A DNA stretch of 64,000 nucleotides from positions 1,460,147 through 1,524,146 of the forward strand of contig CAVXKA010000001.1 in assembly GCA_963762255.1 (NCBI GenBank). Direction: 5' to 3'. This DNA comes from Candidatus Eiseniibacteriota bacterium. Lineage in GTDB: Bacteria; Eisenbacteria; RBG-16-71-46; JABDJR01. The position numbers and the translations under genes were made by a program. The notes under the pieces are model-generated. The model worked only from the letters and a program-made list of their open reading frames with translations, made no database searches and was not told the origin of the DNA. Positions 43,613 through 63,400 of the stretch are shown here, piece after piece; the first letter of the stretch is position 1; every line of letters begins with the position of its first letter.

Positions 43613-45462
<1,850 letters not shown>

Positions 45463-45599
45463 GAGAGTGTGTACTCGGCAAGTATACACGGGAGAGGGCG
45501 TGGCCCGAGAACCTACGGGATCAGGTATAGTGACTCGGTGCATCGGCGCACGCTAACATCGATGCCGACCATCTGCCGACGAAAGGCGCAATAGCAGGT

Positions 45600-54331: not shown

Positions 54332-54601
54332 GGGCTGGGCCTCCGGATACTCGGGTGCCATACCCGGTTTCCTGCACACATCAGAGCGTCTCCACAGAGT
54401 ACGGCCACCCCAGCTCATCGCTCAGGCGTGCTGGGGAGTTGCTGCGTTCGCCGGAAAGGAAGATCGAGGGTAGATCTCGCGCCTTCTGGATTGCGGTGGT
54501 TCATTACCACCACCGCGAGACTAGCTCAGTGGACAGCCGGGAGACACGAAACTCATGATAATATTCCATCAGTGTCCGCAGGCCCAGTTGGGAGGCAATC
54601 C

Positions 54602-55186
54602 ATGCCCGAGGAACTGCGAAACCACGAACTCGTCACCCTGGCTGTCTATTTGGTGGGAGGGGACGCCCATGAAGTTGACACGGAAGATGTCGCTATAAAG
54701 GCTGATGAACTAGCGCCAGGTCGATTCACGTGGAGGAAATATAGAGATCAGATTAATATTGAGATAATCAGAGCGTTTCTATCCGACGCTAAGAAACCAA
54801 AGAATGGTGGCTACCTCATTGGCACGGGGAACACGGGTTGGCTGTTGACTGGGGCCGGTTTGTCATTCGTTACTGCGAACCTGATCCGACTCAAAACAAT
54901 ACATGATCGCGGGGCACGTCTGGGCGCAGAGGAGCGTCGGCGTCGGACAAGAGAACATGATCGCTTACTCAGTACTGCGGCCTTCCAGAAGTACTCGGCG
55001 GGCGAACAGTCTGCTATATCTATGCGGGACGCAGAGGCTGCCTTCAGGCTGAATGAGTACATTGTTGGAGAGGCGCGACGCAGGAAGGTACAAAAGCTGG
55101 TCAATACATTCGCAGATGATGAGGAACTGGGAGGCGCGATCCGGTTCCTGGCTGCCCTTGCGTGCGGGGAGACCGGTGATGACTGA
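54602..55186 (+). CDS. hypothetical protein (island gene 1)
   Basis: The ATG at 54602 is preceded by GGGAGG. 194 aa, no recognisable domain. Overlaps the next gene by 8 nt (ATGACTGA). Confidence 0.55.
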   Translation: MPEELRNHELVTLAVYLVGGDAHEVDTEDVAIKADELAPGRFTWRKYRDQINIEIIRAFLSDAKKPKNGGYLIGTGNTGWLLTGAGLSFVTANLIRLKTIHDRGARLGAEERRRRTREHDRLLSTAAFQKYSAGEQSAISMRDAEAAFRLNEYIVGEARRRKVQKLVNTFADDEELGGAIRFLAALACGETGDD

Positions 55187-56840
55187 AGCAGAAGAGCTGT
55201 ATGTGAAAAGTCACGTTTCACGTGATCTATTGCAGAGCGCGGCACTCTTCAAGAATGACCACCTCGTCGTTTGGGAATACGTCTCCAATGGGCTTCAGTA
55301 CGTCGACCCGGGTACGGTTCCCAGAGTCCGGGTGACGCTGGATGATAGGCGAAAGCGAATCGCGATCAAAGACAATGGGCGAGGAATGACGTTCGCTGAC
55401 CTTCAGGACTTCTTCGTCATGCACGGAGAGAACGTCGATCGAAAGATCGGGCGACCGGGTCGCGGGATGTTCGGAACGGGCAAGTCAGCGGCGTTCGGGA
55501 TCGCAGAAAGACTGATCATCTCCACCACCCGGAACGGGATGCGAACACGGGTATCCTTGTCCCGTGACGACATAAATGGGATGCGAGACAACTCCCCCAT
55601 TCCCGTTCAGGTCTTGGAGAGAACAGAGAATTCGGAGGAAGCGAATGGGACACTGGTAGAGATTGAGGGCGTCCATCTTCGGAAGCTTGATCAGAAGAAC
55701 GTCATTCGGTTTGTGGAACGACATCTCGCGCATTGGCCTCGCAACGTCGTTGTGTGGATCAACAATCACGAATGCCAGTATGTGCCCCCCGCGGCCCTGC
55801 GACTGGATGTGATTCACCCAAGCGGGGAAATCGCGGAGATTCTGGGGCCGTGCAAACTGAATCTGCGTGTGTCCGCGGTGCCGTTGGGCGCTGACGAGGC
55901 AGGCGTGGCGGTGTTCTCAAAAGGGGTGTGGTATGAGACGACCCTCGCCGGAAGCGAAGGGCGCGAGATGGCTAGCTTCATCTTTGGCGATATCGACATT
56001 CCTAGAATCGACGAGGATGACTCACCGATTGCTCCGTTTGATATGAGCAGGGCGATGCATCTTAACGCTGCCAATCCCTTGGTTCAGACTGCATACGCGT
56101 TCATTGGGACCAGCGTTGAGAAGCTAAGAAGGGAGCTGGTGGCTGAGGAGCGTAGGAGGCGTGCTTCTGAGGAGGCGCAGAAACTGGCGATGCAGGGGAG
56201 CGAAATCGCCCGCGTGATCAATGAGGATTTCCGTGAGTTTCAGCAAAGAGTGGCCAAAGCGCGCGCACGTGCGCGGGGAGGAGACGACCTTGGGGTGACC
56301 GAGCTGGACGGGGGGGGAGAAGCAGCCGACCTGGTGTTTGGGCGCGACGAGGGAGCGGTTATTCTGGATGATCATGGCAGCCCTGGAGCAGAAGGGAGTG
56401 GGGGGGGCGGAGCGGGGGGAGAGCCGCGCACGCTGAACCCGGAGGTCGAAGCCGGTACGGACGCGGACCCAAAGCTCGGACAGAGATCCGGTAGCGATGG
56501 TGGGGGTAGGGCCAAGCCCCGTGGCGGGTTCAGTATTGAATTTAGACACATGGGCCAAGACCAGGACCGGGCCAAGTACCAGCGAGAAGCAAGGCAGATT
56601 GTCATCAACTTGGACCATCCCCAGCTACATGCCGCGCTTGGTTCAGGTAGCGTAGAAGACCCCGTGTTTCGACGGCTTGCATATGAGGTCGCGTTCTCAG
56701 AGTACGCGCTTGCACTGGCACTTGAGTTGGCGTTGCGCGATGAGTATGTGGACATCACAGATCCGATCGTCGAGATTGGGGAGACCTTGAATCGAGTTGC
56801 GCGGCGCGGAGCGTCCCTCTATGAGGAACCCAGTACCTAG
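55179..56840 (+). CDS. GHKL/HATPase_c-type ATPase (histidine-kinase-like ATP-binding fold), island gene 2
   Basis: N-box-like WEYVSNGLQYVD, G1 box IKDNGRGM and G2 box GRGMFGTGKSAAFGIA. A long C-terminal region has a Gly-rich linker. Confidence 0.68.
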   Translation: MTEAEELYVKSHVSRDLLQSAALFKNDHLVVWEYVSNGLQYVDPGTVPRVRVTLDDRRKRIAIKDNGRGMTFADLQDFFVMHGENVDRKIGRPGRGMFGTGKSAAFGIAERLIISTTRNGMRTRVSLSRDDINGMRDNSPIPVQVLERTENSEEANGTLVEIEGVHLRKLDQKNVIRFVERHLAHWPRNVVVWINNHECQYVPPAALRLDVIHPSGEIAEILGPCKLNLRVSAVPLGADEAGVAVFSKGVWYETTLAGSEGREMASFIFGDIDIPRIDEDDSPIAPFDMSRAMHLNAANPLVQTAYAFIGTSVEKLRRELVAEERRRRASEEAQKLAMQGSEIARVINEDFREFQQRVAKARARARGGDDLGVTELDGGGEAADLVFGRDEGAVILDDHGSPGAEGSGGGGAGGEPRTLNPEVEAGTDADPKLGQRSGSDGGGRAKPRGGFSIEFRHMGQDQDRAKYQREARQIVINLDHPQLHAALGSGSVEDPVFRRLAYEVAFSEYALALALELALRDEYVDITDPIVEIGETLNRVARRGASLYEEPST

Positions 56841-56913
56841 TCCTTCCGCTTCTGACAGTGCCGGCTCCGCCATGGCCGCAGCAGCTGAGCACTGAGCCGA
56901 GGCGGAATTTGCG

Positions 56914-59316
56914 ATGAAGACGCAGGGGCGGCGCACTATTCCACAGTTGTTCCTTTCGGATAGTGCTCGGAGATGTCTCAAGAGACTGGCAATCGAGCGC
57001 GTCGTTGACCTAGCGCGCGTGACGCCCACGGAGATTTTGGGAGCCTGTGAAGAGAATCATGACACGCTCCAGGAAATCACGCAGCTCGCTTGGGAGATGG
57101 GCTCCCCGGTCGCAAGTCAACTAACGATTGACTTTGCCGGCACGCGCATTCATGAAGCTGATACTTCCGCCAACGTCCACCACCAGCATTCTGCGGATGT
57201 GGTCCCTCGTGTCCTTCTCTTGGGTGTTACGGACTTTCATCTTTCGGTACGTGCTCGAAATGGGCTAAAGAGGCTGAACATCGAGTTTGTAGGAGACCTT
57301 GTGACGACGCCAAGGTCGATCCTGCTGCGAACGCGTAACCTGGGCCGAAAGACACTCGGCGAGCTCGAGCATCTCGCGGCTGGACTAGGCATGGTGCTGG
57401 GTATGCAGATTCCCTCCTGGGAGACGATCGACGCTTGTCGTGAGGCGACGCGACACCGTGCTGCCTTGGATGGATTGCGGGAGCGTCTGAAGCGCGGGGT
57501 CCGCGCCGAGGTCGTTCCTGTTGCTGAGTCGGCGAGTGCAGCCGCAGCGCCGATGCAGAGCCATTGGAGATCCGAAGAACTCGCACTAATCATGCTCATG
57601 CGAGTGGCTGATTTCGGGCTCTCAGCACGCGCGAAGAGCGGCCTGGAGAAGTTGCACATCGAGTTTCTGGGTGACTTGGTCACGACGAAGGAGAGGAAGT
57701 TTCGAACGACGCGCAACTTTGGTCAGAAGACCCTGGAGGAGCTGCGCAATCTCGTGGGGTCGTTCGGGCTTGTTCTCGGATCCGATATGTCGGGATGGCT
57801 AGGCGTAGCAGCGCATGAGGCTGAAAAGCGGCACAAGGAGGAGATAGATAGGCTGTGGAGACGAGTTGCGCAGGAGCGCTTCTCTATTGATTCAACTTGC
57901 GGGGTAGAGCAAGAGATCGAATCGGCGCTGCACTTGGCACTACGTGCTGACCGTGTCAGGAGAGTCAGCGCATGGATGGGTCTCGGACGAGACGTGTGTC
58001 CAACGTTGGAGGAGGTTGGTTCGGAGTGCGGGGTTACGCGTGAGCGAATCCGGCAGATCGTGATGGCTGGAAGCACGAGGGTGCGTACAGTGCGGCTGGA
58101 AATGCCCAGGCTGCGCGGGGCACTTAGGGGACTTGAGGGAGCTGGATTGTTGTCAATCAGGAGCGCTGAGGCGTTTCTCAAGGAAGAGGGGTACACGACG
58201 GGGAACATCTCAATGGCGTGCCTGCTTCGGACTGCGAGGTTCTTCGGCATTCAGACGCAACTGAGGATGATCAAGGGAGGTGGGCAAGAGTTCGTTGGCA
58301 CGCCGAGAGCAAGAATGGTCCTCTTGCCAATCCGTCGTGAAACGCGACGGGCGGTCAGAAGGTGGGGATGCGCAACACTGGAGGATGTGGCGGCACAAGC
58401 GAGTCGGGAAGCTGCTCGTGCGATCTCAGCGGATCTGGTCGGGGACGTCGCGAAGACCTTCGGTGATTTCCGATGGCTGGATGAGGAGTCGGGCTGGTTC
58501 TGGCTTTCTAAGACGCGTCAGAATCGCCTGCTTTCTAGGATCGACAAGATTCTGGCTGTCGCGCCCCGCGTTGATCTGGCGCAACTCCGGGCCGGTGTTG
58601 GGCGGCACTATCGGATGGAGGGCTTTGCTCCACCCCTCCGAGTACTCCGCTCCCTTTGTGAACAGATGGAGGGCTGTGACGTCATTGATGGACAGATCAT
58701 CGTTGCCCTGCGCCCACGAAGACTGGACATGGTACTCAGCGGCACCGAAAGAGTCCTCGTTACTGTAATGCGTGACCACGGGCCAGTCGTGTCATATGCG
58801 GAGATCGTGCGCCGATGTGTCGCCGCCGGCCTCAATCCGACAACGACGAGTGTTCATCTGGGTAACTCACCGGTCGTCCGTCGCCTCGCTCCTGGAGCGT
58901 ATTCGCTGATTGGACAATCAGTGCTTCCCGGAGAGGTGGCTAGAGTGATCGCAGGCGCAACACATGGGAAACGGGTCATTCAGGATTCAGGCTGGGCTCG
59001 TGACGGGAGTGCATTCTGGGTGACATACAAGATCTCCGAGAGCGTTCTCCGGAGCGGTGTTGTGAGTGTTCCGGCCGGACTTGCGAAGCTCATGACGCCT
59101 CAGGGGTACGACTTGATCGGAGTTGATGGTGGGCATGTCGGACGCATCAGGGTTGCGGGGTCAAGCATATGGGGGTTCCTACCCGTCTTCCGAAGGCGTG
59201 GGGGAGATGCGGGGGACTATGTGCGTGTGACCTTTCGAAATAGCAGTGCTACGGCCAAGTTCGAATTCAGCGACATTCCATTCGAGGATGCGTACGTGAC
59301 CCGGACCCTGTCCTGA
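56914..59316 (+). CDS. protein with three tandem RNA-polymerase alpha-subunit C-terminal-domain (alpha-CTD)-like HhH modules plus a sigma-70 region-4-like HTH and an uncharacterised C-terminal half, island gene 3
   Basis: Repeats LSVRARNGLKRLNIEFVGDLVTTPRSILLRTRNLGRKTLGELEHLAAGLGMVLGM and LSARAKSGLEKLHIEFLGDLVTTKERKFRTTRNFGQKTLEELRNLVGSFGLVLG align by eye to E. coli alpha-CTD ([55 protein letters not shown]). PTLEEVGSECGVTRERIRQI matches sigma-70 region 4.2 (TLEEVGKQFDVTRERIRQIE). Confidence 0.7.
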   Translation: MKTQGRRTIPQLFLSDSARRCLKRLAIERVVDLARVTPTEILGACEENHDTLQEITQLAWEMGSPVASQLTIDFAGTRIHEADTSANVHHQHSADVVPRVLLLGVTDFHLSVRARNGLKRLNIEFVGDLVTTPRSILLRTRNLGRKTLGELEHLAAGLGMVLGMQIPSWETIDACREATRHRAALDGLRERLKRGVRAEVVPVAESASAAAAPMQSHWRSEELALIMLMRVADFGLSARAKSGLEKLHIEFLGDLVTTKERKFRTTRNFGQKTLEELRNLVGSFGLVLGSDMSGWLGVAAHEAEKRHKEEIDRLWRRVAQERFSIDSTCGVEQEIESALHLALRADRVRRVSAWMGLGRDVCPTLEEVGSECGVTRERIRQIVMAGSTRVRTVRLEMPRLRGALRGLEGAGLLSIRSAEAFLKEEGYTTGNISMACLLRTARFFGIQTQLRMIKGGGQEFVGTPRARMVLLPIRRETRRAVRRWGCATLEDVAAQASREAARAISADLVGDVAKTFGDFRWLDEESGWFWLSKTRQNRLLSRIDKILAVAPRVDLAQLRAGVGRHYRMEGFAPPLRVLRSLCEQMEGCDVIDGQIIVALRPRRLDMVLSGTERVLVTVMRDHGPVVSYAEIVRRCVAAGLNPTTTSVHLGNSPVVRRLAPGAYSLIGQSVLPGEVARVIAGATHGKRVIQDSGWARDGSAFWVTYKISESVLRSGVVSVPAGLAKLMTPQGYDLIGVDGGHVGRIRVAGSSIWGFLPVFRRRGGDAGDYVRVTFRNSSATAKFEFSDIPFEDAYVTRTLS

Positions 59317-59635
59317 CCGGATGTGGCGGCGGCCATCCCCCGCACCATCACCTGCTGCACCGCGAACACGATCCCCAGGAGCGTTCCGCCGGCATCATCC
59401 CGGTGTAAGTCGCTCCGAAGTCGCCAACCACATGCTCGCAGGACCAAGTCTCCTCGCGATGGCGCTTATTCGGTGTCTAGAAGATGGACGACTTCAGGAG
59501 CGCTGCCCGCGAGTCGGAGAACCCCAGCACCAACGCAAGCTCCGTCCACATGCCGAGGAGCAAGACCCGGCTCTTGCTCGATTGATTGAAGATCTGAAGG
59601 AGGTCGTTCAGCGCTCCGCCGATGGCAACGATGGT

Positions 59636-59670
59636 CCAAAAGAAAGGGAGGGGCCTCTCGGGCCCCTCCC
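59636..59670 (-). terminator. rho-independent terminator for the minus-strand gene ending at 59722
   Basis: On the minus strand, a perfect 10-bp GC stem (GGGAGGGGCC/GGCCCCTCCC, 59646-59670) with a 5-nt loop is followed by UUUCUUUU (plus-strand AAAAGAAA, 59638-59645). Confidence 0.65.
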
Positions 59671-59721
59671 TCGCGTAGCACCCCCCAGGGATATCGATAC
59701 GCTCTGAAGCGAAACTGCGAG

Positions 59722-60231
59722 TTACTGGACGACGATCGCGCCGCGATCGACGAGATCGATGCCGGTCACCTTCCAGATCTGGAAGGGGCCTTTGTCGCCG
59801 CCGCGAGCCACGATCTGGTCGCCGTCACCGACGAGGCGCAGATTGCCGGCGATGACCGCAACCTGATAATTGAGTACCTTTCCGTCGAGGTCCTTCACCT
59901 CGAACGAAGCGCCGCGCACGGCGCGCACTTCCTGGCTGAACTCGCTCACGAGCTGCCCGCCCGAGATCGTGTCCTTGCGCCGGTCGATGAGGATCAGAGT
60001 CTGTGCGTCGTCGAGGTTCCCGGCGCCGGAAGCGATCGTGTAATTGGTGCCGTCGAACGAGAACGCCGTGCTGCGGGTCTGAGTCGTCGCGCCGCTGGCG
60101 CCGGCAAGGCCGTCGATCGCCGTGACGCGGACGACCGCCACCTTCCCGTCGGGGATCGCCGCCGCGGAGGCGGTTGTAGCGATACCCGCAGCCAAGATGA
60201 GAGTCAGAAGGACAAAGCTTGCAGATTTCAT
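59722..60231 (-). CDS. hypothetical secreted protein (about 169 aa)
   Basis: The ATG at 60231 gives a signal peptide MKSASFVLLTLILAAGIATTASAAA. The upstream extension of ORF 59722..60327 is unlikely. Confidence 0.6.
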   Translation of the reverse strand: MKSASFVLLTLILAAGIATTASAAAIPDGKVAVVRVTAIDGLAGASGATTQTRSTAFSFDGTNYTIASGAGNLDDAQTLILIDRRKDTISGGQLVSEFSQEVRAVRGASFEVKDLDGKVLNYQVAVIAGNLRLVGDGDQIVARGGDKGPFQIWKVTGIDLVDRGAIVVQ

Positions 60232-60491
60232 GGTGTGCTCCACCTCCGATTGGGTAGTCCGAAGGGTTCGGCCATCAGTATAGCACTCTAACTCGTTGTC
60301 GTTCAATGGGTTAATTTGCCCATCCATTCAAGTGTCGGTCGATCAACAGGTTGCGTGCGATTTGCATGACGCGCCGGCTCATCGGTGGGGGATATCGCCC
60401 GGGACAGTTGTGCGGGATCGTCGCCATGGGTACTCTCGGCGCCGGACTCCCGGCCGCACATCTCACCATCGCCCCTCAGCGAGAGACAACC

Positions 60492-63400
60492 ATGACGCGT
60501 TCCATTCGCCTCGCTCTTCTTGCTGCGCTCGTATGCGTGCTCGCGCCCGTCTCGGCGAGCGCCACCTCTCCTGTCGGTTATTACCGCCAGCCGTGGTTGC
60601 ATGGCAACACGCTCGTCTTCATCGCCGAGGGGGATATATGGAAGGTGCCCGACACGGGCGGCACCGCCACGCGGCTTACCAGTCACGCCGGCAACGAGGC
60701 AACTCCCGCAATCTCTCCCGACGGCAAGACGCTCGCGTTCGTCGCGTCCTACGAGGGCCCCACCGAGGTCTATACGATGCCGCTCGCGGGCGGGCTGCCC
60801 ACCCGCCGCACCTATGGAAGCGGGAACAACATCGCCGTTGTCGGCTGGACCCCCGACGGTCGGGTGCTGGTGACGACCGACGTGTACTCCACGATTCCCA
60901 ATCGTCAACTGGTCGCGCTGGACGTCTCGCGCGCGGACGCCGCCGGGCTTCCGACGCGCCTCCCGCTCTTCCAGGCCGCCGACGGCGACTACACCCCCGA
61001 CGGCAAGACGCTCTTCTTCACGCGGTTCGCCTTCCAGGGGAGCCATACCAAGCGATACAAGGGAGGCACCGCGCAGAACATCTGGAAGTTCGCCGACGGC
61101 GACGACGAGGCGACCTGCCTCACCGGGGATTACGCGGGCACCAGCCGGCGCCCCATGGTGTGGAACGGTCGCGTCTACTTCGTCTCCGACCGCGACGGCT
61201 CCATGAACCTCTGGTCGATGCTCCCCGACGGAGGCGATCTCCGGCAGCACACCCGCCACGAGGGTTGGGATGCGCAGGGCGCGGCGCTCGACGGAGGGCG
61301 AATCGTCTACCAGCTCGGCGCGGACATTCATCTCTACGACATCGCCGCCGGCGCCGACCGGGTCGTGCCGATCGCGCTCGACAGCGACCTCGACCAGATG
61401 CGGGAGCACTGGGTCGACAAGCCGATGACCTACCTCACCGCGGCGCACGTCGCACCCGACGGCAAGCGCATCGCGCTCACCGCGCGCGGCGAGGTGTTCG
61501 TGGCGCCGGTGGAACAGGGCCGCTTCGTGCAAGTGACCCGCAAGGAAGGCGTGCGCTACCGCAACGCCCGCTTCATGCCCGACGGCAAGACGCTGCTCGC
61601 TCTCTCCGACGAGTCGGGGGAAGTCGAACTCTGGAAGCTGCCCGCGAACGGCGTGGGGCAAGGCGAGCGGCTCACCACCGACGCGGGGATCCTGCGCTGG
61701 GACGGCATTCCATCGCCGGACGGCAAGCGCGTGGCGCACTGGGACAAGAAGCAACGGCTCTTCCTGTTCGACCTTGCCACGAAGCGCAACGTTCTGATCG
61801 AGGCGAGTGAGGTCGATCAGATTTCCGACGTCACCTGGTCGCCGGACAGCCGATGGGTCGCCTACGTCGCGCGTGCGGAGAACTCGTTCCGCCGCATCAA
61901 GGTCTACAGCGTCGCCGACGGTTCGGTCACGCCCGTCACCAGCGATCGCTTCGATAGCTACAGCCCGGCGTGGAGCGTGGACGGCAAGTGGCTCTACTTC
62001 ATCTCCGACCGGAACCTGGTCTCCATCGTGCACGGCGTGTGGGGGAGCTATCAGCCCGAGCCGTACCTGGACAAGACGAGCCAGATCTTCGAGCTGGCGC
62101 TCGTGAAAGGGGCGCGCTCGCCGTTCGCCCCCGACGATGAGCTGCAAGCGGCGGAGACGGACGACGGCGGCGAGAAGGACGCGAAGGACGACAAGGACGC
62201 GAAGGACGAGAAGAAGGACGAGGAGGCCTCGGAGGGGCCCGCCGAGGTGCGCATCGACAAGGAGGGCATCCAGGAGCGGTTGGCCCTCACCCCGATCCCG
62301 CCCGGCAACTATGGCTCGCTGGTCGCCGTCGACAAGGCGCTGTTCTGGCTCTCGACCCAGACCGGCGCCGCCAAGGCGGATCTCGCCGGCGCCGAGATCA
62401 CGAACCAGGATCTCGAGGTGAAGACGGTGGTGGAGGGGGTCACGAGCTACGAAGCCACCGCCGATGGCAAGAAGCTCCTCGTGCGCAAGGGCGAGACGTT
62501 CCACGTGATCGACGCGTCTCCCAAGGAGGCGGAGCTGGAGAAGAACGACGTCGATCTGTCCACGTGGGCGCTCTCGGTGATTCCCCGCGAAGAATGGCGG
62601 CAGATGTTCACCGAGGCATGGCGGCTCGAGCGCGACTACTTCTACGACCCCGGCATGCACGGCGTGGACTGGGATGCGATGCGCAAGAAGTACGAGCCCC
62701 TGGTGGATCGCGTCACCAATCGCGCCGAGCTGTCGGATCTGCTCGCGCAGCTCGTCTCGGAACTCTCCGCGCTTCACATCTTCGTCTACGGGGGTGAATT
62801 CCGTTCCGGCCCCGACAAGGCGGAGCCGTCCACCCTGGGTGCGGTGCTGCGCGCGCGACGCACGGGCCGGCGGCTATCGCGTCGAGCATATCTACCGTTC
62901 CGACCCCGACGAGCCCGGCCGCGCCAGCCCGCTCGCACGTCCGGGTGTGAACGTGGCCGACGGGGACGTGATCACGATGGTGAACGGGGTGCCCACGCTG
63001 GACGCCGCCGATATCGGAGTCATGCTTCGCCGGCAGGCGGGGCGGCAGGTGCTCCTGCGCGTGCAACCGTCGGCGGGCGAGCGCGCGGGACGCGATCGTG
63101 GAGCCGATGTCGCTGCGCGAGGAGTCCGAGCTGCGCTACCACGAGTGGGAGTACACGCGACGGCTCGAGGTGGAGCGGTTGAGCCATGGCCGCATCGGCT
63201 ACGTCCATCTTCGCGCGATGGGGAGCGGGAACTACACCGAGTGGGCCAAGGGGTTCTACCCCGAGTACACGAACGAAGGGCTCATCGTCGATGTGCGTCG
63301 CAACACCGGCGGCAACATCGACAGTTGGGTGCTCTCCCGGCTCATGCGCAAGGCATGGATGTTCTGGAGCCAGCCGGTAGGGAAGTCGCCGACCTGGAAC

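What the first reader, a model, noticed from the sequence alone, without database searches (positions are those of the whole stretch)
56914..59316. Chimeric protein mimicking two RNA-polymerase promoter-recognition modules: three alpha-CTD-like domains plus a sigma-70 region-4-like HTH
Three tandem units of about 60-80 aa each reproduce the alpha-CTD helix-hairpin-helix signature. That signature is LSxRxxNxLK..(I/L)EF(V/L)GDLV...........NLGxKTLxEL..L....GxVLG. A segment PTLEEVGSECGVTRERIRQI then sits almost on top of the sigma-70 region 4.2 recognition helix. A free-standing protein that combines the UP-element/activator contact domain of alpha with the -35 reading head of sigma is unusual. 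It could act as a decoy that titrates activators or promoter DNA, a sensor of phage RNAP-hijack factors, or a transcriptional takeover factor. The C-terminal half of about 380 aa has no recognisable fold.
Basis: partly seen in the sequence, partly recalled or inferred. Interest (0 to 1): 0.75.

Follow-up and report, generated by a model that had tools for sequence, protein, structure and literature searches.

The report
DNA-reading partner of GHKL ATPase
The 800-residue protein is real and consists only of DNA-binding modules (three RNA-polymerase alpha-tail copies, a sigma-factor -35-reading head, four winged helices and a B3-like barrel). It is the fast-evolving third gene of a widespread three-gene cassette with a MORC-like ATPase that sits in bacterial defence islands and that I could not find described.

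Summary
ORF 56914-59316 encodes three alpha-CTD units (Pfam E=6e-30; the first is degenerate) and a sigma-70 region-4 HTH. The HTH shares VTRERIRQI with my recalled E. coli sigma-70 sequence.

The protein is not a one-off chimera. Its C-half defines a family of about 1,700 clusters at 50% identity. Among representatives, 57/64 carry Sigma70_r4 and 42/64 carry RNA_pol_A_CTD. The DNA-contact residues of both modules are about 90-98% conserved.

It is also not free-standing. It is gene C of a conserved cassette: A (about 195 aa, no known family), B (553-aa GHKL ATPase with transducer and coiled coil) and C. The cassette occurs across phyla and coincides with the window's low-GC island. Elsewhere it lies next to or inside Hma, Hachiman, type IIG R-M and Bub systems.

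The alpha-CTD/sigma-4/wHTH module is homologous to the central sensory part of BREX PglW. No nuclease was found.

Best reading: C is the DNA-targeting or sensing subunit of an undescribed GHKL-ATPase conflict system. The decoy and takeover ideas remain untested.

The parts
54602..55186 (+). Gene A: ~194-aa protein with no Pfam, NCBIfam, PADLOC or PDB-sequence match. First gene of the cassette (true start is M59 of ORF 54428..55186).
   Evidence: Homologues of 38-48% identity lie directly upstream of B in 9 other loci. An independent gene call gives 194 aa. No family hits.
55179..56840 (+). Gene B: 553-aa GHKL ATPase (HATPase_c_3) with a transducer domain, a ~65-aa helix, a disordered Gly-rich linker and a conserved unassigned ~100-aa C-terminal domain. 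Overlaps the A stop by 8 nt.
   Evidence: Pfam HATPase_c_3 at 48 bits against a cutoff of 25. The catalytic E33, N37, DNGRGM and GTGK motifs are invariant. AF2 pLDDT 77. Foldseek matches Hsp90/TRAP1, GyrB-43K and MORC3 at E 1e-12 to 1e-14. More than 1,900 homologues.
56914..59316 (+). Gene C: the 800-aa target protein, made entirely of DNA-binding modules.
56935..57123 (+). Alpha-CTD-like unit 1 (aa ~8-70), degenerate.
   Evidence: 25% identity to the recalled E. coli alpha-CTD; R265 and G296/K298 equivalents are lost. Counted only at a permissive threshold.
57199..57423 (+). Alpha-CTD unit 2 (aa ~96-170), with R113, N116, G144 and K146 equivalent to R265, N268, G296 and K298.
   Evidence: Pfam best stretch 101-151. 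PDB alpha-CTD E=5e-14. 41% identity to the recalled E. coli alpha-CTD. Family conservation of R in 114/121 and G in 115/118.
57577..57801 (+). Alpha-CTD unit 3 (aa ~222-296).
   Evidence: PDB hits at aa 221-294. 33% identity to the recalled E. coli alpha-CTD, with R, G and K retained. Own HMM gives aa 230-277 at E=3e-9.
57913..58095 (+). Sigma-70 region-4-like HTH (aa ~334-394), with recognition helix VTRERIRQI at aa 374-382.
   Evidence: Pfam 21.4 bits. NCBIfam RpoD/RpoS/MzaA matches. PDB RpoS region 4. Family-wide conservation of R584 117/126, E585 120/126, R586 122/126, R588 119/126 and Q589 124/126.
58096..58956 (+). Four tandem winged-helix modules (aa ~395-462, 464-531, 538-598, 610-665) plus a connecting helix.
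58984..59271 (+). C-terminal B3-like beta (pseudo)barrel (aa ~691-786), with the conserved motif WG..PFFRRRGGE.GD.
54400..59800 (.). Low-GC island (0.52-0.62 against 0.65-0.70 in the flanks) that coincides with the A-B-C cassette.
   Evidence: No tRNA or att-like repeats at the borders.

Best explanation
Gene C is the DNA-recognition (targeting or sensing) subunit of a compact, horizontally mobile three-gene cassette, A-B-C, that behaves like a genome-conflict (defence-type) system.

Shown here:
- C consists only of DNA-binding modules: alpha-CTD helix-hairpin-helix units (0-4 per family member, 3 in this protein), a sigma-4 HTH, four winged helices and a B3-like barrel.
- The DNA-contact residues of the alpha-CTD and sigma-4 modules are under strong purifying selection across the family.
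- C is linked, often with overlapping or closely abutting start and stop codons, to B.
- B is a catalytically intact GHKL ATPase with a transducer domain and a long helix.
- Only A, B and C are conserved together.
- The cassette sits in defence islands.

Inferred:
- C binds DNA multivalently. The sigma-4 head would read a -35-like hexamer. The alpha-CTD units would read adjacent A/T-rich minor groove. The winged helices and B3 barrel would add affinity or specificity.
- C loads or activates the B dimer. B would then use ATP-driven N-terminal dimerisation to clamp, loop or compact the bound DNA, as MORC, MutL and Hsp90-type GHKL engines do.
- The outcome would be a block on transcription or replication of incoming DNA, or a signal to unlinked effectors.
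- A is a small adaptor or regulator.
- The variable N-terminal region and the lower conservation of C relative to B fit a specificity subunit.
For: Domain content of C.

Family size and architecture. The C-half family has 1,744, 1,102 and 431 representatives at E<=1e-3, 1e-10 and 1e-30. Of 64 representatives, 57 carry Sigma70_r4 and 42 carry RNA_pol_A_CTD. The distance from the TRER motif to the C-terminus is fixed (median 426 aa, IQR 420-432), whereas the N-terminal region ranges from 126 to 595 aa.

Conservation of DNA-contact residues.

A-B-C synteny. It is seen in metagenomic and genomic loci from Acidobacteriota, Alpha- and Gammaproteobacteria, Chloroflexota and Myxococcota. An all-against-all comparison of neighbouring ORFs finds only A, B and C conserved.

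Relative rates. C diverges faster than B in the same locus pairs: the C-half is 22-38% identical, B 35-56%.

B is an intact GHKL ATPase with a transducer domain.

Defence-island context. The cassette lies inside an Hma system (HmaA 1e-190, HmaB 4e-131, HmaC 2.5e-125). It lies next to Hachiman (HamB E=0, HamA 3e-98), next to a type IIG R-M gene and next to a Bub/E1 operon with an integrase. One locus has an adjacent integrase. The window's GC dip matches the cassette.

Homology to defence proteins. Aa 230-554 match the PglW central module (E=5e-12 and 1.6e-14), which PMC12839542 describes as an alpha-CTD-like domain plus three wHTH forming a sensory hub. Sigma-related HTH, B3-like and wHTH domains are documented sensor modules in DndH and Menshen (PMC10853773; PMC12065111).
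Against: - No nuclease or other effector was found in A, B or C by Pfam, NCBIfam, PADLOC, PHROGs, PDB sequence or fold searches. The output step is therefore conjecture.
- PADLOC-DB 2.0 has no model for the cassette, and no anti-phage phenotype is known.
- The defence-island evidence rests on a handful of loci, not on a genome-wide enrichment statistic. In this window the flanks are ordinary genes.
- How such a reader would tell host promoters from foreign ones is unexplained.
- The B3 assignment rests on fold alone.
- No physical B-C interaction was tested.
- One locus has B alone (L011). In one locus an unrelated XRE-type HTH protein replaces A.
Confidence: 0.5

Rival explanations
1. RNAP-mimic decoy or guard. 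The alpha-CTD and sigma-4 modules would act as baits for phage proteins that hijack host RNAP. Binding or modification of the bait would switch on B. From my own background knowledge, T4 Alt/ModA ADP-ribosylate alpha R265, and AsiA- and gp67-type factors bind sigma region 4.
For: The bait-like modules copy exactly the two RNAP parts that phages commonly target. The R265 equivalent is conserved in 114/121 members and the sigma-4 helix in 117-124 of 126. Alpha-CTD copy number varies between 0 and 4, as might be expected for baits. The context is defence islands.
Against: The conserved positions are the DNA-contact residues. The equivalent of E261, which contacts sigma, is not conserved (E in 34/116). 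The remaining ~470 aa of C are further DNA-binding folds, which a protein-sensing decoy would not need. The homologous module in PglW is interpreted as nucleic-acid binding (PMC12839542). No binding to phage proteins was or could be tested.
Confidence: 0.12
2. Restriction-like paraMORC system with a hidden or unlinked effector. C would be the sequence- or modification-reading subunit, using its B3-like barrel as in EcoRII, BfiI, NgoFVII and LlaJI. B would loop DNA. Cleavage would come from the unassigned conserved C-terminal domain of B, from A, or from a neighbouring system such as Hma.
For: The B N-terminus matches the BbrUII/HgiDII restriction-enzyme GHKL region (E=4e-11 and 2e-18). paraMORC GHKL ATPases are components of R-M operons (PMC2292703). 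There is fold similarity to the LlaJI.R1 N-domain and a Pfam RE_NgoFVII_C hit in one family member. The B C-terminal domain has invariant polar residues N, H, E and Y and no assignment. The cassette is nested inside Hma in L018.
Against: No nuclease, helicase or DNA methylase is conserved with the cassette. No nuclease fold or motif was detected. The adjacent methyltransferase in the window is a generic class I SAM enzyme that lies outside the GC island and is not conserved.
Confidence: 0.15
3. Transcription regulator module. C, an HTH-rich protein, and B would control expression of the cassette or of adjacent defence operons, in the manner of BrxR, CapW or CapK-CapS. It would not itself act on invaders.
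For: C is rich in HTH and wHTH domains. The cassette lies directly beside different defence systems in 4 of 4 long contigs. A GHKL protein paired with a wHTH protein controls immune operons in the CapK/CapS system (PMC13373217).
Against: CapK/CapS have STAS domains and a kinase-type GHKL, neither of which is present here. The neighbouring systems differ from locus to locus. In this window and in L002, L003 and L009 the cassette has no adjacent defence operon. The GC island contains only A-B-C. An 800-aa reader with nine DNA-binding domains plus a 553-aa ATPase is large for a local repressor.
Confidence: 0.12

Closest known systems
PglW of type 2 BREX/Pgl (central sensory region)
   Same: Aa 230-554 of C align to PglW residues ~800-1113 (PADLOC E=5e-12, NCBIfam E=1.6e-14). 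That region is described as an RNAP alpha-CTD-like domain followed by three wHTH modules acting as a DNA-binding and sensing hub (PMC12839542). The order of modules is the same: alpha-CTD, then HTH/wHTH array, then a C-terminal variable module.
   Different: C has no NERD nuclease, no kinase or pseudokinase and no iSTAND domain. It scores 52.7 bits against a cutoff of 990. There are no PglX, PglZ, BrxC, BrxD or BrxH neighbours. C has up to three alpha-CTD units, a clear sigma-4 helix and a B3-like end domain, and its partner is a GHKL ATPase.
Mza system (MzaA sigma-70-family protein with MzaB GHKL ATPase)
   Same: It pairs a protein carrying sigma-70 region 4 with a MutL-like GHKL ATPase in a defence context. 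There are weak local matches to MzaA (E=2.9e-6) and MzaB (E=1.7e-3).
Prokaryotic MORC/paraMORC GHKL ATPases of restriction-modification operons (Iyer, Abhiman and Aravind 2008, PMC2292703)
   Same: B has an N-terminal GHKL domain with intact ATP-binding motifs and a transducer-type middle domain. It is sporadically distributed and mobile, and it lies in conflict-system neighbourhoods.
   Different: No linked SF2 helicase, nuclease or DNA methylase is conserved. The partners A and C are not among those described in that paper, which does not mention sigma at all. I did not test assignment to a specific paraMORC family.
RNA polymerase alpha C-terminal domain and sigma-70 region 4 themselves
   Same: Sequence-level homology: 41% identity to the recalled E. 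coli alpha-CTD, and an identical VTRERIRQI recognition helix. The UP-element and -35 contact residues are retained.
   Different: There is no alpha N-terminal assembly domain and no sigma region 2 or 3. C therefore cannot assemble into RNAP as alpha or act as a sigma factor. The two modules sit in one polypeptide with seven further nucleic-acid-binding domains.
B3-like DNA-binding domains of restriction enzymes (EcoRII-N, BfiI-C, NgoFVII-C, LlaJI.R1-N) and of Menshen NsnA sensors
   Different: There is no detectable sequence similarity in this protein, and no fused nuclease or NTPase.
Eukaryotic MORC silencing complexes recruited by sequence-specific DNA-binding proteins (my own background knowledge, not checked here)
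   Same: The proposed logic is the same: a GHKL clamp or compaction engine is directed to target DNA by a separate DNA-reading protein.
   Different: This is an analogy only. No orthology was shown, and B matches Hsp90, GyrB and MORC3 about equally well.

Membership tests
RNA polymerase alpha subunit (RpoA) | Alpha C-terminal domain (RNA_pol_A_CTD) | tested here: met
   Pfam 103 bits against a cutoff of 23.8. PDB alpha-CTD E=5e-14.
RNA polymerase alpha subunit (RpoA) | Alpha N-terminal dimerisation/assembly domain, and a full-length score above the family cutoff | tested here: not met
   No N-terminal-domain hit. NCBIfam rpoA models score 92-122 bits against cutoffs of 228-523, and match only their C-terminal ~90 positions.
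Sigma-70 family sigma factor | Region 4 (-35-binding HTH) | tested here: inconclusive
   This protein scores 21.4 bits against a cutoff of 24.1. Homologues score 28-39 bits, 57/64 family members hit at E<=1e-3, and the recognition helix matches my recalled sigma-70 sequence. So the feature is met at family level and marginal by the curated cutoff here.
Sigma-70 family sigma factor | Region 2 (core binding, -10 recognition) | tested here: not met
   No Sigma70_r2 or r3 hit. RpoD/RpoS models score ~23 bits against cutoffs of 354-555, over region 4 only.
BREX type 2 PglW | Central alpha-CTD-like + wHTH sensory module | tested here: met
   Aa 230-554 match PglW 806-1113 at E=5e-12. Aa 231-389 match 800-948 at E=1.6e-14.
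BREX type 2 PglW | NERD nuclease, Ser/Thr kinase modules, a whole-protein score above cutoff, and BREX gene neighbours | tested here: not met
   No kinase or nuclease domains. 52.7 bits against a cutoff of 990. The neighbours are only A and B.
[not shown]
   26 bits against 800 and 17 bits against 850. No further conserved genes.
GHKL ATPase of MORC/paraMORC type (gene B) | Bergerat-fold ATP-binding motifs | tested here: met
   HATPase_c_3 at 48.3 bits against a cutoff of 25. E33, N37, D65-N-G-R-G and G99-T-G-K are invariant in 32 sequences.
GHKL ATPase of MORC/paraMORC type (gene B) | Transducer (S5-fold) middle domain | tested here: met
   Foldseek alignments of 355-414 columns to the N+middle domains of Hsp90/TRAP1, GyrB-43K and MORC3, at E 1e-12 to 1e-14. 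This is fold level only, and the model's pLDDT is 77.
GHKL ATPase of MORC/paraMORC type (gene B) | Operon partners typical of paraMORC R-M systems (SF2 helicase, nuclease, DNA methylase) | tested here: not met
   Only A, B and C are conserved across 11 loci.
B3-like DNA-binding pseudobarrel | Fold similarity | tested here: met
   [not shown]
B3-like DNA-binding pseudobarrel | Sequence-profile match | tested here: not met
   No Pfam or PDB-profile hit for this domain. One of 64 relatives hits RE_NgoFVII_C at E=1e-4.
Anti-phage defence system (generic) | Enrichment next to known defence genes | tested here: inconclusive
   All 4 long contigs examined have a known system adjacent, and the P0011 locus has AAA_13 and Ea47 neighbours. 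The sample is small, no background statistic was computed, and the window's own flanks are ordinary genes.
Anti-phage defence system (generic) | Protection phenotype | not testable with these tools
   Needs phage and plasmid challenge experiments.

The most novel reading that the evidence does not exclude
The A-B-C cassette is a new kind of immunity that senses promoter architecture rather than sequence or modification. C would use RNAP's own UP-element reader (alpha-CTD) and -35 reader (sigma-4), fused in one chain, to find very strong sigma-70-type promoters on incoming DNA. It would then occlude them, or load a MORC-like ATPase clamp that silences the DNA without cutting it.

An alternative version is that the same modules are decoys that detect phage factors attacking alpha-CTD or sigma-4.
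Probability: 0.15. Interest if true: 0.85.

Novelty: new variant of a known kind. Interest (0 to 1): 0.6.

Why it matters
If the model is right, three things follow:
- It would add a widespread, nuclease-free, GHKL-driven system to the list of bacterial conflict systems. The C-half family has more than 1,000 clusters at 50% identity (E<=1e-10).
- It would give a tractable bacterial model for how MORC-type ATPases are directed to DNA by a separate reader protein.
- It would help explain why RNAP's alpha-CTD and sigma-4 modules recur in defence proteins such as PglW, MzaA and DndH variants.

The conserved DNA-contact residues give direct, cheap tests: point mutants, and EMSA on UP/-35 DNA. A cultured carrier exists, Allopontixanthobacter confluentis KCTC 52259. 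If instead it proves to be a local regulator or an R-M accessory, it is a modest addition to known themes.

Tried and rejected
- Island borders. I found no tRNA and no convincing direct or inverted repeats. The promoter and terminator scans were not above chance.
- Phage or plasmid carriage. B has no phage match and only one partial plasmid match. A Foldseek search of the C-half against viral structures found nothing at E<=1e-3.
- Mza, PglW, RpoA or sigma membership. All were rejected on scores and missing domains.
- CapK/CapS analogy. Rejected: there are no STAS domains and the GHKL type differs.
- Identity of A. No Pfam, NCBIfam, PHROG or PADLOC hit. A PDB profile search gave only a weak EF-hand-like match that I regard as spurious. 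hhalign against the C profile was negative.
- B C-terminal domain. No PDB or Pfam match.
- Sequence-level proof of the B3 domain. Negative.
- The ~75-aa gene upstream of A in L002 and L003. It has no counterpart in the window or in other loci.
- The afdb50 fold library was unavailable.
- Literature. Searches for the trio under several term sets found no description. The held library is incomplete, so absence is not proof of novelty.
Full report
**1. The observation**

ORF 56914..59316 (+) encodes 800 aa. An independent public gene call gives the same product.

Pfam finds RNA_pol_A_CTD at E=6.3e-30 (103 bits, cutoff 23.8, three stretches). It finds Sigma70_r4 at 21.4 bits, just under the cutoff of 24.1. 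NCBIfam matches only the last ~90 positions of the rpoA models and region 4 of the RpoD/RpoS models. PDB chains of alpha-CTD match aa 100-170 at E=5e-14, and RpoS/SigA region-4 chains match aa 353-393 at E=5e-4.

I aligned the protein to E. coli alpha-CTD and sigma-70 region-4 sequences that I supplied from memory; the residue numbering is also from memory.
- Unit 2 is 41% identical and keeps R265, N268, G296 and K298.
- Unit 3 is 33% identical and keeps R265, G296 and K298.
- Unit 1 is 25% identical and has lost these residues, so it is degenerate.
- The sigma segment TLEEVG....VTRERIRQI matches the recalled sigma-70 sequence at 15 of 19 positions, including an identical recognition helix.

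**2. The C-terminal half has clear folds**

An AF2 model of aa 395-800, built on 13 sequences, reached pLDDT 85.6. It shows four successive helix-helix-helix-strand-strand units and a terminal beta domain.

- many single winged-helix domains;

One family member hits Pfam RE_NgoFVII_C, a B3-like DNA-binding domain. Sequence profiles of the terminal domain did not recover B3 domains, so that assignment is at fold level only. The whole protein is thus a chain of nine nucleic-acid-binding modules with no enzymatic domain.

**3. A large family, not a one-off chimera**

The word-indexed search found only 22 relatives. An exhaustive phmmer search of the C-half against 1.84 billion cluster representatives found 1,744 at E<=1e-3, 1,102 at E<=1e-10 and 431 at E<=1e-30. 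The match always lies at the C-terminus of proteins of about 250-1,170 aa.

Of 64 representatives, 57 carry Sigma70_r4 and 42 carry RNA_pol_A_CTD. With my own HMM, members have 0 to 4 alpha-CTD-like units, most often 1 or 2. The distance from the TRER motif to the C-terminus is fixed (median 426 aa, IQR 420-432). The region before it ranges from 126 to 595 aa.

Mean column identity across 126 members is only 14%, yet the DNA-contact residues are nearly invariant:

| Module | Residue (E. coli numbering) | Conserved in |
|---|---|---|
| sigma-4.2 | R584 | 117/126 |
| sigma-4.2 | E585 | 120/126 |
| sigma-4.2 | R586 | 122/126 |
| sigma-4.2 | R588 | 119/126 |
| sigma-4.2 | Q589 | 124/126 |
| alpha-CTD | R265 | 114/121 |
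| alpha-CTD | N268 | 93/119 |
| alpha-CTD | G296 | 115/118 |
| alpha-CTD | K/R298 | 83/120 |

E261, which in RNAP contacts sigma, is not conserved (E in 34/116).

**4. Genomic context: a three-gene cassette**

Directly upstream lie gene B and gene A.
- B (55179..56840, 553 aa) is a GHKL ATPase (HATPase_c_3 48 bits).
- A (54602..55186, 194 aa) matches no family in any library searched.

The same A-B-C order, or A-B divergent from C, occurs in many places:
- metagenomic loci L002 and L003 and the P0011 contig;
- genomes of Acidobacteriota, Allopontixanthobacter confluentis, a gammaproteobacterium and a Limnocylindria MAG, with a degraded copy in a betaproteobacterium;
- L017 to L020.

An all-against-all comparison of every ORF in 11 loci found only A, B and C conserved. 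One locus has B alone (L011). In one locus an unrelated XRE-type HTH protein replaces A.

B is much better conserved than C in the same locus pairs: 35-56% identity against 22-38% for the C-half. The B family has more than 1,900 hits at 54-68% identity.

In the window, the GC dip (0.52-0.62 against 0.65-0.70) spans 54.4-59.8 kb, which is exactly the cassette. No tRNA or att repeats mark the borders.

**5. What B is**

The catalytic E33, N37, DNGRGM and GTGK motifs are invariant. The AF2 model (pLDDT 77) shows a Bergerat fold, a transducer domain, a 65-residue helix, a disordered Gly-rich linker and a small conserved C-terminal domain.

Foldseek aligns 355-414 columns with Hsp90/TRAP1, GyrB-43K and MORC3 at E 1e-12 to 1e-14. 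The C-terminal ~100 aa carry invariant N, H, E and Y residues and have no match. No nuclease was detected anywhere in the cassette.

**6. Defence-island association**

- In L018 the cassette lies inside an Hma system (HmaA 1e-190, HmaB 4e-131, HmaC 2.5e-125).
- In L019 it lies between a PIN gene and a complete Hachiman system (HamB E=0, HamA 3e-98).
- In L020 it lies next to a type IIG methylase/restriction gene (6e-162).
- In L017 it lies next to an integrase and a Multi_ubiq-ThiF-BubE operon.
- L003 has an adjacent integrase and AlpA.
- The P0011 contig has AAA_13, Ea47 and DUF932 neighbours.

B is absent from 50,697 phage records and has only one partial match in 72,556 plasmid records. The sample is small and I computed no background statistic.

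**7. Relation to known systems**

PADLOC and NCBIfam align aa 230-554 to the central part of BREX type 2 PglW (E=5e-12 and 1.6e-14). A 2026 analysis describes that part as an alpha-CTD-like domain followed by three wHTH modules serving as a DNA-binding sensory hub (PMC12839542).

Weak local matches to MzaA and MzaB recall another pairing of a sigma-4 protein with a GHKL ATPase. The scores are far below the cutoffs and the other Mza genes are missing.

The literature records sigma-related HTH insertions in DndH (PMC10853773) and B3-like and wHTH sensor domains in Menshen (PMC12065111). The 2008 survey of prokaryotic MORC/paraMORC operons does not mention sigma (PMC2292703). Several literature searches found no description of this trio. 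PADLOC-DB 2.0, NCBIfam 20 and Pfam have no model for A or for the C-half.

**8. Mechanism**

Shown: C is a multivalent DNA-binding protein whose DNA-contact residues are under selection. It is genetically coupled to an intact GHKL ATPase. The unit is mobile and sits in defence islands.

Inferred:
- C selects DNA. It may recognise a -35-like hexamer with adjacent A/T-rich minor groove, because those are the specificities of the retained residues.
- C loads or activates B.
- B clamps, loops or compacts that DNA.
- The effect is non-nucleolytic interference, or signalling to other systems.

I give about 0.8 to "DNA-binding targeting or sensing subunit coupled to B", about 0.5 to the whole statement including a conflict or defence role, and about 0.15-0.25 to the specific promoter-reading and silencing version.

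Rivals:
- a decoy or guard for phage anti-RNAP factors (0.12);
- a restriction-like system with a cryptic or unlinked nuclease (0.15);
- a local transcription regulator of defence operons (0.12).

**9. Verdict**

On novelty, it is a new variant of a known kind. The cassette is assembled from module types already seen in PglW, paraMORC and B3-containing defence proteins, and I could not find it described. Interest is 0.6.

Noticed in passing
window 45363-45471 (-): TPP riboswitch (Rfam RF00059, 62.9 bits against a gathering score of 54.3, E=6e-10). Unrelated to the finding.
   Followed up: no
L018 4840-20604: The A-B-C cassette is inserted between HmaA and HmaB/HmaC of an otherwise complete Hma system, with a PIN gene as well. 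This could mean a functional link or simply nesting within a defence island.
   Followed up: partly
L017 9361-9996: In a Myxococcota MAG, the slot of gene A is taken by a 211-aa XRE-type HTH protein with no detectable similarity to A (hhalign probability ~1%). This suggests that A is a replaceable regulator or adaptor.
   Followed up: partly
L002 1145-1372; L003 7513-7737: A conserved ~75-aa lysine-rich gene (34% identity between the two loci) lies just upstream of A in two metagenomic loci. It has no counterpart in the window or in the other genomes.
   Followed up: partly
L005 10001-11773 (P0013); L004 10001-11938 (P0010): Other proteins carry alpha-CTD x2 plus sigma-4 with a different (P0013) or weakly related (P0010) C-terminal region. 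One lies beside DndC/D/E and SMC-like/SNF2 genes. The other lies between transposases in an island with a Dcm/Vsr pair and an Mrr gene. The alpha-CTD + sigma-4 module therefore recurs with different C-terminal partners.
   Followed up: partly
P0014-P0018: Alpha-CTD is also fused to TPR arrays (440-470 aa proteins). In one 928-aa protein it is fused to integrase SAM-like domains plus sigma-4. These are further non-RpoA uses of the domain.
   Followed up: no
window 56511-56837 (B residues 445-553): The C-terminal domain of B is highly conserved (motifs GGF, INLDHPQ and RLAYEVAFSEY; N, H, E and Y are invariant). It matches nothing in Pfam or in PDB sequences. It could be a dimerisation module or a cryptic effector.
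   Followed up: partly
L013 4178-8602; L011 5797-7416: One betaproteobacterial locus carries a fragmented, apparently decaying A-B-C cassette. A Planctomycetaceae locus has B without A or C.
   Followed up: partly
window 59644-59672: A 12-bp GC-rich hairpin followed by a T-run on the minus strand lies just downstream of the convergent gene 59722..60327 (-) and 330 nt after the stop codon of C. It is probably that gene's terminator.
   Followed up: no
window 62154-62221: A short tandem repeat (units of 9, 18 and 27 nt; GAGAAGGAC-type) encodes a Lys/Asp/Glu-rich stretch inside the long ORF 60351..63182.
   Followed up: no
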